A stretch of 63,594 bases of DNA, filler included, from Basidiobolus ranarum (GCA_040143965.1; 47 parts of 47 records of this genome joined end to end with filler, not necessarily neighbours in it); one strand, 5' to 3'; shown: positions 16,324 to 52,796, counted from the whole stretch's first letter. The notes: generated by a model from the sequence alone, not told the origin. Numbers and translations are program-made.

Positions 16324-17581
16324 ACTACAAGTGCTCAATCTAAGGAGAATAAACTATTATATCATATTCTGGAATCAAGCAGCTATACAAGTAGTGAAAC
16401 ATTTGACAACTCTGGAAATCAGCATGTTCTCTCAACTATTGAAAAATATAGAAATTAGAAAAAGGATATTTTCCAGCCAATCAGGAACTTGAAAGTTGGG
16501 CTCAGAAATATGGTGATAGCTCTCTGACCAATCATATACTTCAGAAATATCCTACTCTCAATATGGCTGATATTGAACACAGTCAATTACTGGAAGTATG
16601 CAATCAATCACCACAAGTATGTAATCAAGCACAAAAGTCAGATAATCAGGTCTCAGAAATTCTACTAAGTGGAAATGGGAAACATCCCACAAGTGATCCA
16701 AGGATTGCTGATCAAATAATTAGATGTGAAAACAGGATTTCTTAATGGAGAAATTGATGAAGATATTGTTGAAATTAACATTGCCTAAACACTTATATAG
16801 TCATATATAGCTTAGTTCTTAGTTATCTTATATTTCTCTAAGATATTATCCATTATTCTCAATTGGAACTTGGAATATTTTAACCAACTTAGAAGTTCTC
16901 AGATATATAGATTTTTCAAACTTGTGCTGGAAGCCCCAAACTTTGCACACATGTTCCTGGGACCTTCCTCCACACATTCTGGATGGTTTTTTGTTGACAT
17001 CTTGACAAAACTATAAATGTCAACTTTCTGCTCAATTAATCAACAAGTGAAAACCACCAATTTCTCTAATTCTCCATACCACTTCCAACAGGCTGCTAAA
17101 TGTTAAAGTATTTAGACTTCTCTGTAATTTACATACTTGGTGTTCTTTTTCTTTAGCAATATATCTCTCTGGTTGATCCATGGATATATCTATTAAAGTA
17201 TTTATATGATGGCATAAGCTGATAATAGAAGTGTTCCATTTGCAGTGATAGAGTATGCCAAGATCAGAATCATGACAGTAAACATAGTAAGCAAATATAT
17301 GGAAAATCCTGCAATTGAACATCACATAGCTATGAAACAGATAATATGCTATCTGAAAGGAACAAGACATCATGGGATTCAGTTTAGTAAGCAGTACAAC
17401 ATATCACTCATTTTGGAAGGATATGCTGATGCAGACTGGGCTAACAACTGTTGGATAATTAATCTTTATTCTGTTGAAATTAGCATTGCCTAAACACCTA
17501 TATAGTCATATATAGCTTAGTACTTAGTTATCTTGTAATTCACTAAGATATTATCAATTATTCTCAATCGGAATTTACTTA
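16324..17581. mobile_element. Mosaic of degenerate Copia pol and C1, C3 and G1 LTR pieces
   Basis: FLNGEIDEDI at about 16738, C1 LTR from 16767, LEGYADADWA at about 17410. Confidence 0.75.
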
Positions 17582-18938: not shown

Positions 18939-19154
18939 NNNNNNNNNNNNNNNNNNNNNNNNNNNNNNNNNNNNNNNNNNNNTTAATTAATTAANNNNNN
19001 NNNNNNNNNNNNNNNNNNNNNNNNNNNNNNNNNNNNNNCAAGATTAGTCCAGGTTTGAATTTATTTGTTTCAACTCATTACATTTCGGTGCATTACTTTG
19101 AATTTAATCCCATTTCTCGAACCTCAATCTACCAATAATATCCATCAGGAAACT

Positions 19155-19784
19155 ATGCATCCCGATTTATTTGAGGTCCGAACTAATCTTTTAGAAAAAT
19201 TCTTTGACAAATATGGCTTTGACGCTAACATTTGTCATGCCCACGATTACGTATTACAAAAATTCGAACACAAACTTAAAGAAAAATTTGGTCAGGACAT
19301 AAAATTTGTCCCACCAAAAGTAGATTACGTTGATGCAATAATTAAACGTAAAACTTATGAAGGACATTACGAACACAGTAATGGCAAAATGGTTTGTAAA
19401 CTCCCTCTCGTCAACAACAAGGGTTATTATATCATTGATGGCATGGAACAAGTCCCTCTAATTCAAGAATAACAAAATATTTCTTTTGCCTATGTTTCCA
19501 AGGATGAAAATGTTGTTTATTGCAAAACTAGGTTCAGGGGATCCTTGCTGCCATTAAGGGTCTGCATCAAAAATTCTGTTGATCTTTATCTAGATGTTTC
19601 ATCAACTCACATAGATATTAATGGATTTAAATGTATGTCTGTTTATTGGGTAATGAGAAACTTAGGTTATGACTTTAGTAAAATATATGAACTTTTTGCT
19701 TTTCTTATTGCCAACAAGTCCCACATAAATATTTTCTCAACTGTATTCTTATCCTCTATGACAAAAATCAGAAAATACTATTAC
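19155..19784 (+). pseudogene. Divergent, compact multisubunit RNA polymerase second-largest-subunit (RPB2/beta-like) N-terminal pseudogene
   Basis: One frame with a single TAA at 19470-19472 (ORFs 19065 and 19545 share a frame). Motifs LLEKFFDKYGF, DAIIKRKTYEG, VCKLPLV, GYYIIDGMEQVPLIQE and SVYWVMRNLG are collinear with RPB2 (FF..GL, EAR.R.LTY, IG..PIM, GYFIINGSEKVLIAQE, IP....RALG). Truncated by a Gypsy LTR. Confidence 0.72.
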
Positions 19785-20295
19785 TGTGATGACTCTGATA
19801 CTGGCATACAGATCCAGTGCAAATAGAACTCTTTTATTATTAGATTACAACATCATATCTGCTGTGCCATTACTTCTTGGCAATCTTGTGTTAGTTCATC
19901 CAGGTTACCTTATATGGAAGTCATGTTTGTTGGAATATTCCATGAAACCTAACCAATCATATCATCCCACACATAGTGTATTTTGAGCAAGACCTTCCAT
20001 AGAAGGTCACCTCATCATCCTTACATAAATCCCTTTTTATATTGTTCCTTGTAGTCCCCAACACCCCAACACTTGAACATGCCACAATATATTCCCTATT
20101 CAGTATATTATGATCATCTTTACATCATCTTTACATCCTCCGTTTTTGTATTGGTCCTTGTAGTCCCCAACACCCCAACACTTGAACTTGCCACAGTATA
20201 TTCCCTATTCAGTATATTATGTTTCACCTTGCAATATCTATATAAGCCCCATGTATTCCTTGATCAGACCTCAGTCTGATCAACGCCAGTTATCA
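19785..20295 (+). mobile_element. Gypsy LTR family G1 (partial, with a small internal duplication)
   Basis: Starts TGTGATGAC; homologous to 25302-25721 (-) and 51545-51942 (-). Confidence 0.85.
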
Positions 20296-21829
20296 NNNNN
20301 NNNNNNNNNNNNNNNNNNNNNNNNNNNNNNNNNNNNNNNTTAATTAATTAANNNNNNNNNNNNNNNNNNNNNNNNNNNNNNNNNNNNNNNNNNNNATATT
20401 GGAAATTTCAAACTCGTCCAAATTGCCCCAAAGATAGCTCATTTTACTCCCACAGATGTTCTGAACACAACCCCAGTGTTAGTTTTCTGTATTTCCACCA
20501 AAAAGCCCTTATTTTCCCAATAGTTCTCAGATATATAGATTTTTCAGACTTGTGCTAGAAGCCCCAAGCTTTGCACACATATTCCTGGAACCTTCCTTAA
20601 CACATTTGACTTGTTTGTTTGTTTACATTTTGACAAAACTATATATGTCAACTTTCTACTCAATAAATCAATAAGTGAAAACCACCAATTCCTCTAAATC
20701 TCCAAACCACTTCCAACAGGCTCCCAAATACTTTAACAGTAACATTAACTAGTGATCTTCTGTTATAACTAAATATCCAGATTCAGTATGCTTTCCTTCT
20801 TTTACAATTTTTTTCAATAAATCTTTACTTCAATGGCCAGTTCTTTTACAGTAATCGCAGAATATGCCACTTTTCTTATTTTAGTGCTTTAGATCTTCAT
20901 AGGAAGGTTTCCCAGAGCCTATGAAGCCATTCTCTTCATTCTTTTGGCTGGATTCTTATTAGTATAGAGCTTTACCCTGAACTCTTGCAAATTCATAACT
21001 TTAGGTCAAATTTTCAGTTCTTGATTCTAGAGCAACTATTAGTCTTGTAAACTTGTGTGGTAGGCTACTCAGGACTATGACTATGATATCCTGATCAGTA
21101 GTAGGTTCTTTGATGCATTCTGTTTCATCTATCAGAATAGTGACTATTAATTAGTGATTAAATATCTTCTCCTGGCTTCTTTTTTAAGTTAAAAATTTGC
21201 CTTCTTAGGGATATCTTGTTAGCAGCAGAAAATGTCTGTTAGATGTCTTCCTATTAAGGTAGCTGGGAGCCTGTTGGTGATGGCTTGACAAAATAAATAA
21301 GCTGGTGATTTTGACTTCTTTATCTAATGAGTAGAAAGTCAGCATTTATGGATTGATCAAAATTTCAAGATACAAACATGTAGGATATGCTATCAAAGCC
21401 CCAGGAATATGTGTGTACAGTTAGAGGCTTCTAGCATAGTTTGAAAAATCCATATATATGAGGAACTCTAAGTTGGTAAAAATATTCCAGGCAAGTGCTG
21501 ATTGAGAATAAAGGGTAATATCTTAGTGAAATATTGAATAGCTAAATACTTGTTGAAAGTCTGGTGACTTGTGGTACAAGCAGTAATTCCTAAAGATGAA
21601 AATATGGAGTATGGTGACTGCATCTGAACACAAAGTCTAAGGCCAATCAGTANNNNNNNNNNNNNNNNNNNNNNNNNNNNNNNNNNNNNNNNNNNNTTAA
21701 TTAATTAANNNNNNNNNNNNNNNNNNNNNNNNNNNNNNNNNNNNNNNNNNNNCTCATCCACTGCAAATGGAACACTTCTACTATTAGATTTTGACAACTC
21801 ATCTGCTGTGCCATCCTTTCTTGGCAATC

Positions 21830-22207
21830 TTATGTGTATATGTAGAGACTAAATACAACAGAATCTTGTATTTTTGGATTCTCATTGTGGCTGGAATACA
21901 ATGCCTAAAATATCTAAATAAAGGCATGCACATCAATTTGAATCCCTATGACAGTAAAGCCAGTAATTTGCCATTTAAAAACTAGTTTTTTGCAAAAGTA
22001 TTTGGAAATTAAATTACACATTGCCAAATATGAGGAACAATATTTTACCACATATGAATACCATCAAAATACAGTTAAGAAGCCAGCATCTCACCATCAA
22101 AATCCAGGCAGAATGCAAGCCACCAATATTGGGATGGTTTGCTGAAGGTTTTGCTATCCAGAAGGGTCAAATTGATATGGATCATATTGATTTGATTTTT
22201 GTTAGGG
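21830..22207 (-). mobile_element. CACTA-like left end (diverged)
   Basis: Reverse complement of 55147-55498 and 57531-57900, ending ...TTTTGTTAGGG at 22207. Confidence 0.7.
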
Positions 22208-22810
22208 AACACAGCTGAAAGTCAAGATGCCATGCAGATGCATTAGTATTATCCCAATACAACACTAAACTCCATGATTTTTACCCTCAAGAACCTAGTC
22301 AGATATCCACATGCTCACTGATATCACTTCACCAAAATGTCAGTCCAACATCAAACTTGAGATTAGCTCTAAGCCTTAGATTATATTGCTAAAGAGATCA
22401 GCTGGAATTAGAGCTTCCCATTAGGTACCATGCACTTACTATTCAACAACATTCCAATAATCCTTACCCAGCTGTATAGTGGGAGATTTGATCTGAACAA
22501 GCCATTTGAGGTAGTATCAAAGTTTGATTTAATTGAGAAAATGCTTGAAAACATCAAGAAACCATCATATTTTACCAGGACTCCCATCAATATCCACCTA
22601 TATAGGCATTTATTTAAATGCAACAACTGGAAGTATTGGATTTGTGTATATTCAAGTGGAATCTTGAAAATATTCCTGCCTGAAAAGTATTGGCAACTTT
22701 GGGAGTTGTTTGTGGATATTGTTAATACATTCTTACTGCAGCAACTCATATTGGCAGATCTCAGGCGGATACAGCAACTGTGCAAGCATTTGGTAATTGG
22801 ATATGAAAAC
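22208..22810 (+). mobile_element. CACTA/EnSpm-type transposase catalytic region
   Basis: MHLLFNNI...KPSYFTRTPINI...FKCNNWKYW...ILKIFLPEKYWQLWELFV, matching the (D)xMH, P-x2-F-x-R-x-P, K-x3-W and LP-x2-Y pattern. Confidence 0.8.
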
Positions 22811-23465
22811 TGCTGGATAATTAATCTTTATTCAACATTGTAGTTAACTTTAGTTATGATACATTTATCAGAAACAGAAAGCAACATATCTATAGCCTCT
22901 ATATTCTAAATAGGAATATCTCTATATCTATATACCAAGAATGTCTTATTACCCCCACTTATCTATTATATCTTATTACACAAACTCCTGAATATCTCAA
23001 ACAATTGATNNNNNNNNNNNNNNNNNNNNNNNNNNNNNNNNNNNNNNNNNNNNTTAATTAATTAANNNNNNNNNNNNNNNNNNNNNNNNNNNNNNNNNNN
23101 NNNNNNNNNCGACAATAGAGGATAAGTAATTACTCTCTAAATTTCACTGATTCTAATTGGAGTTTTTTTTTGTTATCACTTTTTGATTAATTTTGGCAAA
23201 CATTTTCGATGGATGAGGTTAGTTAATTAATTGGTTAAAATTGAGCATAATTTACATGTGTTGAGGGGTAATTTAAACCATTTGTAAGCCATTACATAAG
23301 ACAAACACAAGTATTTAGTTGGTTTCATCTAGTATTTCGGGTAAATAGAGGGAAGAAGTAGGGGAAACAAATAGTGATTCAATACTTGTTGACGGAGAAA
23401 TCTACTCATTCCCTAGTCTAATATAAAAGGAACTCCCACTGGGTTTGTATAGCATTCATGTTTAT

Positions 23466-51544: not shown

Positions 51545-52796
51545 ATTACTGGCATTAATCAGACTGAGATCTGATCACGTAATACATAGGGCTTATATAG
51601 ATATTGCAAGATGGAACATAATATACTGAATAGGGAATATACTGTGGCAGGTTTGAGAGTTGGGATGTTGGGGACTACAAGGACCAATACAAAGAGAGAT
51701 GATGTAAGGATGATCAGGTGACCTTGTATGGAAGGTCTTGGTGGAAATACAAATGTGTTAGATGACATGATTGGTTAGGTTTCATGGAATGTTCCAAAGA
51801 ACATGACTTCCATATAGGGTAATCTGGATGAACTAACACTGGATTGCCAAGAAGGGATGGCACAGTAGCTATGATATCATAATCTAATAATAGAAGAGTT
51901 CTACTTGCAGTGGATCAGTATGCTAAGATCAGAATCATGACAGTAAGTGTCAGATTATGTTGCTAAAGGGGTTCAGTTGGAGCCTGAGCTTCCCATTAGG
52001 TACTATGTACTTACTCCAGAACAACATTTGAATAAAACTTACTCAGCTATATAATGGAAAATGCAATAGTAATGAGCCATTCAAAATAGGATCAAATTAT
52101 CAATCAATTGGGAGAATGCTTGTATATGTCAAGAAACCATTGTATTTTATCACAACCCCCATCAGTATCCACTTATCTAGGCATTTATTCAAATGCAAAG
52201 TCTGGAAGTATTGGATTTGTATATATTCAAGCGGATCTTGAAAGGATTTTTGCCTGAAAAGTATTGGCAACATTGGGAGTTATTTGTTGATATTGAAAAT
52301 ATATTCTTATGGCATCAACTCACATTGGTGGATCTCCGTCAGATACAGTCTCTGTCTAAAGATTTTGTGATTGGAAATGAAAAACTGTATTACAGGTGTA
52401 AAGAAGATAGACTAAATCTAAGCCAGTATTCACTACATTGCCTGCCGCATCTTTGACAATGCTTAAAGATTATAGGCCCTTGCTATAAATTCTGGGACTC
52501 TAATAGAAATTTGAGCATTATTAATCTAGGAAAACTTTCACAACTTTAATCCACTTGGGATTGACCGTTTACTTACAGTCATAAAATTATCAAGTTAGAT
52601 TTGATTTTAATCAATTTTTTCAGTTTCAGGAGTGAAATTTCAAGATCTTGCAAAATAGTTGCGCTTGATTGGCTAAAATCTCAGAGAACTATGGATCAAC
52701 ACATGTGCAAAAAATGTTACTCAAATTTTACACAATTACCACTTGAATGCTAATTTGTCACCTTCAAAATCCCTAGTCTCTTTGATATAATCTCCT
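51545..52796. mobile_element. Gypsy LTR G1 (-, to 51942), CACTA transposase core (+) and CACTA right end (from 52498)
   Basis: FLPEKYWQHWELFV...EKLYYRCKEDRL...HCLPHL...GPCYKFW. Confidence 0.8.

What the first reader, a model, noticed from the sequence alone, without database searches (positions are those of the whole stretch)
19155..19784. Minimal RPB2/beta-like RNA polymerase gene: candidate endogenous virus or cytoplasmic linear-plasmid relic
Seen: an intronless frame of about 210 codons with one stop, carrying five RPB2-like blocks in order. It reaches GYYIIDGMEQVPLIQE within about 105 aa, roughly half the distance in cellular RPB2. The spacing LPLVNNKGYY equals bacterial RpoB (IPLMTDNGTF), while the residues look eukaryote/archaea-like. 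Knowledge: cellular Pol I/II/III subunits are far more conserved than this, whereas reduced two-barrel RNAPs occur in yeast pGKL2-type cytoplasmic plasmids and in large DNA viruses. Inference: this is a nuclear-integrated relic of a possibly undescribed fungal DNA virus or virus-like element, later hit by a Gypsy LTR.
Basis: partly seen in the sequence, partly recalled or inferred. Interest (0 to 1): 0.8.

Follow-up and report, generated by a model that had tools for sequence, protein, structure and literature searches.

The report
Dead giant-virus RNA polymerase gene fragment
This is the broken front fifth of an RNA polymerase gene left in a probably fungal genome by a relative of giant viruses and then cut off by a jumping gene; such viral relics in fungi and moss are already published, so it is real but not a new kind of thing.

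Summary
Window 19155-19772 (+) encodes the first 206 residues of an Rpb2/beta-type RNA polymerase subunit, with one in-frame TAA at codon 106. An LTR retrotransposon repeat starting at about 19779 cuts it off.

Pfam and PDB sequence searches of the fragment find nothing. An exhaustive HMMER search links it (E 1e-31) to unnamed 860-966 aa "compact" Rpb2 proteins, and it is 74% identical to a Basidiobolus ranarum protein. The predicted fold matches only RNAP beta chains.

On virus-like contigs these compact Rpb2 genes sit beside a D5 primase-helicase, an SNF2-type helicase, a two-gene (split) Rpb1, TFIIS, UDG and flap endonuclease. That is the gene set published for NCLDV-like insertions in Physcomitrella (Maumus 2014) and for "fundsalphavirus" relics in fungi, including Basidiobolus and Mortierella (Gong 2020).

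So this is a decayed endogenous giant-virus-relative fragment. It is not a pGKL2-type plasmid polymerase and not a host polymerase.

The window is a chain of 47 unrelated ~1.25-kb contigs, so the only real context is this 1257-bp contig. This scan noted the same polymerase lineage before, on other DNA.

The parts
19039..19154 (+). Unique 5' flank of the contig, upstream of the start codon. No function assigned.
   Evidence: The contig starts at 19039, after the spacer. It has no match to the other 46 contigs. The gene's first residue aligns with residue 1 of P0027.
19155..19772 (+). N-terminal 206 codons of a compact Rpb2/beta-type RNA polymerase subunit (protrusion and start of lobe region). 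It is a pseudogene fragment and the catalytic domains are absent.
   Evidence: HMMER gives E 1.1e-31 to P0003 and 1.5e-20 to P0004. It is 74% identical over 206 aa to P0027. In the ESM Atlas, 27 of the 30 nearest clusters carry PF04563. All top 50 Foldseek PDB hits are RNAP beta chains.
19401..19469 (+). Conserved block L-P-L-V-x3-G-Y-Y-I-I-D-G-x-E-Q-V-P-L-I-Q-E (residues 83-105), with bacterial-type Pro-to-Gly spacing.
   Evidence: P84, G90, G96 and E105 are invariant in the 18-row alignment A2.
19470..19472 (+). In-frame TAA stop at codon 106.
   Evidence: Translation. Relatives align on both sides of it. The B. ranarum relative has a sense codon at this position.
19779..20295 (+). Start of an LTR of a retrotransposon that truncates the gene. 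It runs to the end of the contig. The boundary is uncertain by a few bases (19775-19781).
   Evidence: It is 86-95% identical to stretches of contigs 51545-52796, 24466-25721 and 21753-23009. In contig 24466-25721 the same repeat is followed by a gag ORF (DUF4939 53.6 bits, Retrotrans_gag 25.8 bits, weak Ty3_capsid).
20030..20247 (+). Tandem duplication of a 109-nt unit inside the LTR.
   Evidence: the repeat finder family D1: two copies, 84% identical.

Best explanation
The stretch is a dead endogenous viral element. It is the first ~206 codons of the second-largest RNA polymerase subunit (Rpb2/beta homologue) of a large DNA virus. That virus belongs to the lineage that left the 'NCLDV-like regions' in moss and the 'fundsalphavirus' relics in early-diverging fungi.

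In the virus (inferred), a compact subunit of about 900-960 aa would pair with an Rpb1 encoded as two genes. Together they would form a virus-encoded multisubunit polymerase that transcribes viral genes independently of the host nucleus.

In this genome (shown), the gene has an in-frame stop at codon 106. It ends at codon ~207, where an LTR retrotransposon begins, so the fork, hybrid-binding and anchor domains are missing and it cannot make a polymerase subunit.

The host is probably a fungus close to Basidiobolus. This is inferred from the nearest relative and is not shown.
For: (1) Homology. E 1e-31 and 1e-20 to 963 and 966 aa proteins, across both sides of the stop. I scanned 10 of the 13 non-self hits with Pfam, and all 10 carry at least one Rpb2 domain at E<=0.01. 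Eight have Rpb2_6 at E 1e-48 to 1e-79. P0008, P0010 and P0012 were not scanned.

(2) Fold. AF2 model, mean pLDDT 71.7. All 50 listed Foldseek PDB hits are RNAP beta chains, best E 4e-5. In BFVD the top 15 are all RNA polymerases of large DNA viruses; 7 are 'Pithovirus LC...' bins and 1 is Cedratvirus.

(3) Nearest named relatives are fungal. P0027 is from Basidiobolus ranarum (74% identity). P0014 is KAG0067766.1 from Linnemannia (Mortierella) elongata.

(4) Tree of 38 rows. Window + P0027 100*; with P0003 and P0004 100*; compact clade of 16 rows 100*. The clade is separate from the RPA2, RPC2 and archaeal-like rows.

(5) Gene neighbourhood of relatives.
- One 51.7-kb IMG/VR contig (L161/L162) carries an 891-aa compact Rpb2, a 610-aa Rpb1 N-half, a 416-aa Rpb1 C-half and a D5-like primase-helicase. 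It also carries a ResIII/SNF2 helicase, TFIIS, a weak UDG match and an XPG/flap endonuclease.
- Metagenome contig L081 carries an 862-aa compact Rpb2 beside a D5-like protein and an SNF2-type helicase.
- This matches the gene lists in PMC4083422 (passages and Table 1) and PMC7017919 (section 2). The latter names Basidiobolus meristosporus, B. heterosporus and Mortierella elongata as hosts.

(6) Integration and decay. There is a stop codon. The junction is to a repeat that has 3 other copies among the window's contigs, one of which leads into a gag ORF.
Against: - Pfam gives no hit on the fragment itself at E<=10, and PDB sequences give no RNAP hit. The assignment therefore rests on intermediate sequences and the predicted fold.
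- Foldseek TM-scores are low (about 0.25).
- No capsid or DNA polymerase gene was seen in the held parts of L081, L161 or L162. That those contigs are viral rests on their gene set and on their presence in IMG/VR.
- I could not compare with the published moss and fungal RPB2 sequences because supplements are closed. Identity with that lineage is inferred from host names and gene content.
- In my tree the compact clade does not sit inside the giant-virus Rpb2 clade. An AU test does not reject joining them (p 0.284), but I named that group after seeing the tree.
- The junction with the LTR rests on a 1257-bp assembled contig. Reads could not be examined, so a chimeric assembly is not excluded.
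- No other virus-like piece was found in the other 46 contigs of the window.
Confidence: 0.82

Rival explanations
1. It is a relic of a pGKL2-type cytoplasmic linear plasmid (virus-like element), whose large RNAP subunit is a reduced beta-beta' fusion.
For: The protein is compact and AT-rich (GC 0.31-0.34 across the ORF), and the probable host is a fungus. K2ORF6p also keeps the beta regions with shortened spacing (PMC6211774, passages).
Against: The full-length relatives end in Rpb2 domains 6 and 7 (for example P0003: 536-869 and 871-954 of 963) and have no Rpb1 domain. A separate Rpb1 N-half and C-half lie on the same contig as a compact Rpb2. The neighbours are a D5 primase-helicase, TFIIS, UDG and flap endonuclease, not a terminal-protein DNA polymerase. 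No pGKL2 sequence was available for direct comparison, and the window's own C-terminus is missing.
Confidence: 0.04
2. It is DNA of an exogenous virus or another organism in the sample, joined to a host LTR by misassembly and not integrated.
For: The contig is an unplaced 1257-bp piece. At least one other contig in the window has a very different composition (31244-32498, GC 0.69), so the assembly may hold foreign DNA. The junction was not checked with reads.
Against: The in-frame stop and the end of homology exactly where the repeat begins are what decay in a genome produces. The GC of the fragment (0.31-0.34) equals that of the flanking repeat and of most neighbouring contigs. A 74%-identical copy is annotated in a Basidiobolus ranarum assembly, and Gong 2020 reports such relics in two Basidiobolus genomes.
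Confidence: 0.08
3. It is a pseudogene or diverged paralogue of the host's own RPA2, RPB2 or RPC2.
For: It belongs to the Rpb2/beta family. The family profile scores best against Pol II among solved structures (551 bits).
Against: The fragment has no detectable similarity to any solved cellular Rpb2, Rpa2 or Rpc2 chain at E<=10. The named cellular hits of its relative P0003 are 29-31% identical over about 63% of its length. It lacks the 20-24 residue archaeo-eukaryotic insert before the G-Y-F motif and about 95 N-terminal residues. The tree separates it from the RPA2 and RPC2 rows. No Pol II Rpb2 and no host sequence was in that tree.
Confidence: 0.01
4. The surviving 105-codon ORF has been co-opted as a small host protein.
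For: It is annotated as a protein in public databases (P0002; sources NCBI and UniRef). Its start codon and first 105 codons are intact.
Against: Homology continues at the same level past the stop, which is typical of a recent nonsense mutation. A lone piece of the protrusion domain has no known activity. No expression data were available.
Confidence: 0.03

Closest known systems
RPB2 genes of the NCLDV-like regions of Physcomitrella patens (Maumus et al. 2014, PMC4083422) and of endogenous 'fundsalphaviruses' of fungi (Gong, Zhang & Han 2020, PMC7017919)
   Same: Both are endogenous, decayed and often associated with LTR retrotransposons. Published hosts include Basidiobolus and Mortierella. 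Relatives of this fragment are linked to the same gene set: D5, SNF2 helicase, split RP1n/RP1c, TFIIS, UDG and FLAP.
   Different: Only a 206-codon stump is present here, with none of the companion genes on the contig. No direct sequence comparison with the published copies was possible because supplements are closed. In the passages I read, neither paper mentions the short N-terminus or the bacterial-type spacing.
Canonical Rpb2 of giant viruses (Nucleocytoviricota; for example the Pithovirus, mimivirus and ascovirus entries matched in BFVD)
   Same: Same fold and the same conserved G-Y-F-I-I-x-G-x-E-K-V block. An AU test does not reject a common clade (p 0.284).
   Different: Giant-virus and other Rpb2 ORFs fetched here have a median length of 1186 aa, with the motif at a median residue of 184 and a Pro-to-Gly distance of 25-30. 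The compact family is 862-966 aa, with the motif at residues 69-103 and a distance of 6. The best IMG/VR matches to the family from the alignment-based scan are only about 27-34% identical.
K2ORF6p, large RNAP subunit of yeast cytoplasmic linear plasmid pGKL2 (Sykora et al. 2018, PMC6211774)
   Same: A reduced two-barrel RNAP subunit of a fungal extrachromosomal or viral element, with shortened spacing between the beta regions.
   Different: K2ORF6p is a beta-beta' fusion, with residues 754-974 homologous to beta'. The relatives of this fragment are stand-alone Rpb2 proteins with separate Rpb1 genes.
Bacterial RpoB (beta subunit)
   Same: Identical Pro-to-Gly spacing in the I-P-L-M-T-x-x-G-T-F-I-I-N-G block (P0026). 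The top Foldseek PDB hits for the fragment model are bacterial and plastid beta chains.
   Different: Full-length relatives score far better against Pol II, Pol III and archaeal chains (515-551 bits) than against bacterial beta (about 240-265 bits). They also carry the archaeo-eukaryotic C-terminal Rpb2_7 domain.

Membership tests
Multisubunit RNA polymerase second-largest subunit (Rpb2/beta) | Significant sequence similarity to bona fide Rpb2/beta proteins | tested here: met
   E 1.1e-31 and 1.5e-20 to P0003 and P0004, which carry Rpb2_3, Rpb2_6 (E about 1e-76) and Rpb2_7. A direct Pfam scan of the fragment gave no hit.
Multisubunit RNA polymerase second-largest subunit (Rpb2/beta) | N-terminal protrusion/lobe (beta1-beta2) fold | tested here: met
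   AF2 model, pLDDT 71.7. All 50 listed PDB hits are RNAP beta chains, including the isolated beta1-beta2 domain entries 4kbm and 4kbj; E is 4e-5 to 2e-3 but TMq is only about 0.25. The Atlas structure search gave TM 0.62-0.64 to Rpb2_1 fragments.
Multisubunit RNA polymerase second-largest subunit (Rpb2/beta) | Catalytic hybrid-binding domain (Rpb2_6) and anchor (Rpb2_7) present | tested here: not met
   Homology ends at codon 206, where the LTR begins. tblastn of six family proteins found no further piece in the window. It is a fragment of a member, not a functional member.
Moss/fungal NCLDV-like lineage (P. patens NCLDV-like regions; fundsalphaviruses) | Closest relatives come from the fungal hosts in which the lineage was described | tested here: met
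   74% identity to a Basidiobolus ranarum protein. The family includes Linnemannia (Mortierella) elongata KAG0067766.1. The host list of Gong 2020 was read.
Moss/fungal NCLDV-like lineage (P. patens NCLDV-like regions; fundsalphaviruses) | Linkage to D5, D6/D11-like SNF2 helicase, split RP1n/RP1c, TFIIS, UDG and FLAP | tested here: inconclusive
   Met for relatives on L161/L162 and L081. It cannot be seen for the window's copy, because the contig holds only the fragment and an LTR.
Moss/fungal NCLDV-like lineage (P. patens NCLDV-like regions; fundsalphaviruses) | Placement with the published sequences in a DNA polymerase B or RPB2 phylogeny | not testable with these tools
   The published alignments are in supplementary files, which are closed. 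No PolB is linked to this fragment.
pGKL2-type cytoplasmic linear plasmid RNAP (K2ORF6p) | Fusion of beta and beta' regions in one polypeptide | tested here: not met
   Tested on relatives only. No Rpb1 domain was found in 10 scanned family proteins, and separate Rpb1 N- and C-half genes lie on the L161/L162 contig. The defining feature is taken from PMC6211774.
Host cellular RPA2/RPB2/RPC2 | High similarity to cellular orthologues and the archaeo-eukaryotic insert before the G-Y-F motif | tested here: not met
   No PDB cellular chain matched at E<=10. The Pro-to-Gly distance is 6 versus 30. It forms a separate clade.
LTR retrotransposon, Ty3/gypsy type (the inserted repeat) | Dispersed copies of the repeat, with a gag gene downstream of the LTR | tested here: met
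   Three other contigs hold copies at 81-95% identity. In contig 24466-25721 the gag ORF carries DUF4939 (53.6 bits), Retrotrans_gag (25.8) and Ty3_capsid (21.2, below the cut-off). The order of RT and integrase, which separates gypsy from copia, was not tested.

The most novel reading that the evidence does not exclude
The compact polymerase family to which this fragment belongs may not be a shrunken giant-virus (Pol II-like) polymerase. It could be an independent, deep branch of multisubunit RNA polymerases that kept a bacterial-like architecture at the start of the beta subunit. The family has Rpb2 of 862-966 aa, an N-terminus about 95 residues shorter, a bacterial-type Pro-to-Gly spacing without the 20-24 residue archaeo-eukaryotic insert, and Rpb1 split at the archaeal position. 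In the 38-row tree rooted on one bacterial RpoB, the family branches outside a 97*-supported group of archaeal-like, eukaryotic and giant-virus Rpb2. Long-branch attraction is a ready alternative, and the AU test does not reject a union with the giant-virus rows.
Probability: 0.1. Interest if true: 0.65.

Novelty: new member of a known kind. Interest (0 to 1): 0.27.

Why it matters
The fragment adds one more decayed copy to a published class of giant-virus-relative insertions in early-diverging fungi, so it changes little. It is useful as a marker: the source genome, probably a Basidiobolus-like fungus, was once invaded by this virus lineage, for which I found no isolate described. The family-wide miniaturisation of the polymerase deserves attention. 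Its features are the short N-terminus, the loss or absence of the archaeo-eukaryotic insert, and the split Rpb1. It is one of the smallest Rpb2-type subunits that keeps all the catalytic domains, and it bears on how viral polymerases relate to cellular ones.

Tried and rejected
- Pfam scan of the 223-aa read-through: no family at E<=10.
- phmmer against PDB sequences: only two chance hits, a formate-nitrite transporter (E 0.021) and EF-2 (E 1.5).
- Word-based search for longer relatives of the fragment: none among 343 candidates.
- Own-genome search: no genome is held.
The junction, read depth and expression are therefore untested.
They returned mostly ordinary ~1100-1200 aa Rpb2 at 27-34% identity. 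Only L081 (1 of 160 loci) was a compact family member.
- Single-protein scan with P0013 in IMG/VR: nothing.
- The genome search on the record of L161: not held.
- tblastn of 29 proteins against the whole window (6 family Rpb2 and 23 neighbouring ORFs of L081 and L161): only the known site, plus two chance-level hits at E 0.03-0.07.
- The scan's earlier notes by place (genome), by words and by P0027: nothing.
- Paper search for 'Linnemannia elongata' with 'giant virus': 0 papers.
- Mirusvirus and named pGKL2 sequences could not be included in a tree because none was obtainable with the tools.
- Among the 149 ORFs, six besides L081 had the motif before residue 100 (L019, L082, L086, L109, L126, L128; 1011-1100 aa). 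I did not examine whether they are cut by contig ends.

Full report
**What the window is.** The 63,594-base window is not one stretch of a chromosome. It holds 47 pieces of 1249-1263 bp in descending order of length. Each pair is separated by 44 N, a 12-base all-frame stop linker and 44 N. The finding lies in the piece 19039-20295 (1257 bp). Neighbouring pieces are therefore not genomic context. Anything said about surroundings must come from these 1257 bases, or from repeats shared between pieces. No whole genome is held for the window.

**The observation.** The + strand from 19155 opens with ATG and reads 105 codons, a TAA (19470-19472), then 117 more codons to a stop at 19824-19826.

Direct searches with the read-through (X at the stop; P0001) were negative. 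Pfam gave no family at E<=10, and PDB sequences gave only two chance hits.

An exhaustive HMMER search of 1.84 billion representative proteins gave 14 hits at E<=0.001. These were the window's own 105-aa ORF (P0002), then P0003 (963 aa, E 1.1e-31, 34% identity, query 8-203 on residues 7-200) and P0004 (966 aa, E 1.5e-20), then proteins of 221-940 aa.

I scanned 10 of the 13 non-self hits with Pfam. All 10 have at least one Rpb2 domain at E<=0.01. Eight have Rpb2_6 (E 3e-48 to 3e-79), together with Rpb2_3 in all eight and Rpb2_7 in seven, and none has an Rpb1 domain. P0008, P0010 and P0012 were not scanned.

The ESM Atlas placed residues 1-105 among clusters of which 27 of the 30 nearest carry PF04563. 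Its stored model matched Rpb2_1 fragments at TM 0.62-0.64.

An AlphaFold2 model built on an 18-row family alignment had mean pLDDT 71.7. In Foldseek against the PDB, all 50 listed matches were RNAP beta chains, including the isolated beta1-beta2 domain entries. The best E was 4e-5, although TM-scores were low at about 0.25. Against BFVD the top 15 were all RNA polymerases of large DNA viruses.

**Where it ends.** A BLAST of the contig against the other 46 pieces shows that 19781-20295 is repeated. It is 86% identical to 51545-52796, 82-95% to 24466-25721 and 81% to 21753-23009. Nothing before 19781 matches.

A three-way alignment puts the start of the shared sequence at about 19775-19781, beginning TGT, which is the usual way an LTR starts (from general knowledge). 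In piece 24466-25721 the same repeat is followed by a 190-codon ORF with DUF4939 (53.6 bits), Retrotrans_gag (25.8 bits) and a sub-threshold Ty3_capsid match.

Homology to the closest relative stops at residue 206, which is base 19772. The LTR contains a 109-nt tandem duplication at 20030-20247.

**Relatives and their shape.** A word-based search with the fragment found one protein in the 122-391 aa range. It is P0027, 'hypothetical protein K7432_017439 [Basidiobolus ranarum]' (UniRef name: DNA-directed RNA polymerase). It is 152/206 identical with no gaps and has a sense codon where the window has TAA.

One family member, P0014, is KAG0067766.1 of Linnemannia elongata. The rest are unnamed proteins from metagenome or run assemblies.

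Twelve full-length members align at 28-41% identity to P0003. The named cellular hits, microsporidian RPC2 and a Halteromyces protein, are 29-31% identical over about 63% of P0003.

The family is short:
- Members are 862-966 aa, with the G-Y-F-I-I motif at residues 69-103. In 149 Rpb2 ORFs extracted from 160 fetched loci the median length is 1186 aa and the median motif position is 184.
- Six of those ORFs, besides the family member L081, also had an early motif. I did not examine them.
- A family profile aligns its positions 83-87 to residues 164-200 of solved Pol II and Pol III chains and to about 150 of archaeal chains. It scores 551 bits on Pol II, about 520 on archaeal Rpo2, 515 on Pol III, 329 on the African swine fever virus subunit, 250 on vaccinia Rpo132 and about 240-265 on bacterial beta.

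- The distance from the Pro of I-P-x-M to the Gly of G-Y-F is 6 in the window, in P0027, in 6 of 13 compact rows by a strict pattern and in a bacterial RpoB.
- Five more compact rows show the same spacing, or one residue more, by eye.
- The distance is 25-30 in 15 of 17 giant-virus or archaeal-like ORFs. The other two show the long spacing by eye.
- It is 30 in a fungal RPA2.

**What element the family belongs to.** I tested this lead on sequences fetched here.

Metagenome contig L081 (15.3 kb) carries an 862-aa compact Rpb2 flanked by:
- a D5-like primase-helicase (DUF5906 28.9 bits; D5_N 22.0, just under the cut-off);
- an 833-aa SNF2/DEAD-type helicase;
- a Ser/Thr kinase with Sel1 repeats;
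- a GDSL-lipase-like protein.

A 51.7-kb IMG/VR contig (L161 and L162) carries:
- an 891-aa compact Rpb2;
- an adjacent 610-aa protein with Rpb1 domains 1-4 and the first 53 positions of domain 5;
- a separate 416-aa protein with the rest of Rpb1 domain 5;
- a D5-like primase-helicase;
- a ResIII/SNF2 helicase;
- TFIIS;
- a weak UDG match (20.9 bits, below the cut-off);
- an XPG_I flap-endonuclease match;
- a DUF5757 protein.

No capsid or DNA polymerase gene lay in the parts I held.

This set coincides with the 20-family list that Maumus et al. give for the NCLDV-like regions of Physcomitrella patens: D5, DNAP, FLAP, UDG, SSB, capping methyltransferase, SNF2, RP1n, RP1c, RPB2, RPB5 and TFIIS (PMC4083422, passages and Table 1). 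It also coincides with the genes that Gong et al. report as shared by endogenous 'fundsalphaviruses' in 14 fungi, among them Basidiobolus meristosporus, B. heterosporus and Mortierella elongata (PMC7017919, section 2). Gong et al. place the moss sequences inside fundsalphavirus diversity and near Pithovirus. Both papers note retrotransposons beside the insertions.

**Phylogeny.** The tree had 38 rows. They were the window fragment, P0027, 13 compact proteins, P0021, three microsporidian RPC2, one fungal RPA2, one bacterial RpoB and 17 locus ORFs. The 17 were chosen as mutually less than 48% identical out of 136. The method was IQ-TREE quick search with LG+C20 PMSF.

The tree joins the window to P0027 (100*), then to P0003 and P0004 (100*), inside a 16-row compact clade (100*) on a long stem. 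All other non-bacterial rows form a group with 97* support.

The tool warned of long branches and compositional heterogeneity. No Pol II Rpb2, no host sequence and no named giant virus was in the tree.

An AU test of 'compact family plus the 14 giant-virus-type ORFs as one clade' gave a log-likelihood difference of 7.2 and p 0.284, so that union is not rejected. I named this group after seeing the tree.

The tree therefore excludes the sampled cellular clades as home for the fragment. It leaves the family's relation to other giant-virus polymerases open.

**Rivals.**
- pGKL2-type plasmid polymerase. K2ORF6p is defined by a beta-beta' fusion (PMC6211774, passages). The relatives here end in Rpb2_7 and have separate Rpb1 genes, so this reading is unlikely.
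- Host polymerase pseudogene. This is excluded by the lack of any similarity to solved cellular chains, by the missing insert and by the tree.
- Contamination or chimeric assembly. This cannot be excluded without reads. However, the stop codon, the composition equal to the flanking repeat and the annotated 74%-identical copy in a Basidiobolus assembly all argue for integration.
- Other pieces. No other piece of the virus was found in the remaining 46 contigs of the window.

**Verdict.** The stretch is a decayed, LTR-truncated N-terminal fragment of the compact Rpb2 of a giant-virus relative of the published moss/fungal lineage, in a probably Basidiobolus-like fungal genome. Its interpretation is right about an endogenous viral relic hit by an LTR element. 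It is wrong that the element is undescribed, and its linear-plasmid alternative fails. The only mildly new point is the family-wide bacterial-like compactness of the subunit's N-terminus, which I did not see mentioned in the passages I read.

Noticed in passing
window 1-63594: The window is a chain of 47 separate contigs (1249-1263 bp, sorted by length) joined by 100-nt spacers of N plus an all-frame stop linker. Adjacency between pieces carries no biological meaning.
   Followed up: yes
window 31244-32498: One contig has GC 0.69, against 0.31-0.43 for the other 46. It may be foreign (bacterial?) DNA or an unusual repeat. Seven long open frames gave no Pfam hit at E<=0.001.
   Followed up: partly
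window 24483-25055 (-): A retrotransposon gag ORF (DUF4939, Retrotrans_gag, weak Ty3_capsid) lies downstream of the same LTR that truncates the RPB2-like gene.
   Followed up: yes
window 52181-52456 (+) and 22412-22843 (+): Two contigs share an ORF family with the motif E-K-Y-W-Q-x-W-E-L-F-V-D-I. It has no Pfam hit and is probably another repeated element of the host.
   Followed up: partly
window 17218-17493 (+): An ORF with a G-Y-A-D-A-D-W-A motif. From memory this resembles the RNase H region of Ty1/copia elements. It was not tested.
   Followed up: no
L161 6237-8069 (-) and L162 4092-5342 (+): On the IMG/VR contig with a compact Rpb2, Rpb1 is encoded as two genes (610 aa and 416 aa). The break falls early in Rpb1 domain 5, the position of the archaeal A'/A'' split.
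   Followed up: partly
L161 8149-10026 (+): A 625-aa protein with DUF5757 (E 8e-19) lies directly upstream of the compact Rpb2 gene and overlaps its start. Its function is unknown.
   Followed up: no
L081 12071-13306 (-): A Ser/Thr protein kinase fused to Sel1/TPR repeats lies on the virus-like metagenome contig that carries a compact Rpb2.
   Followed up: no
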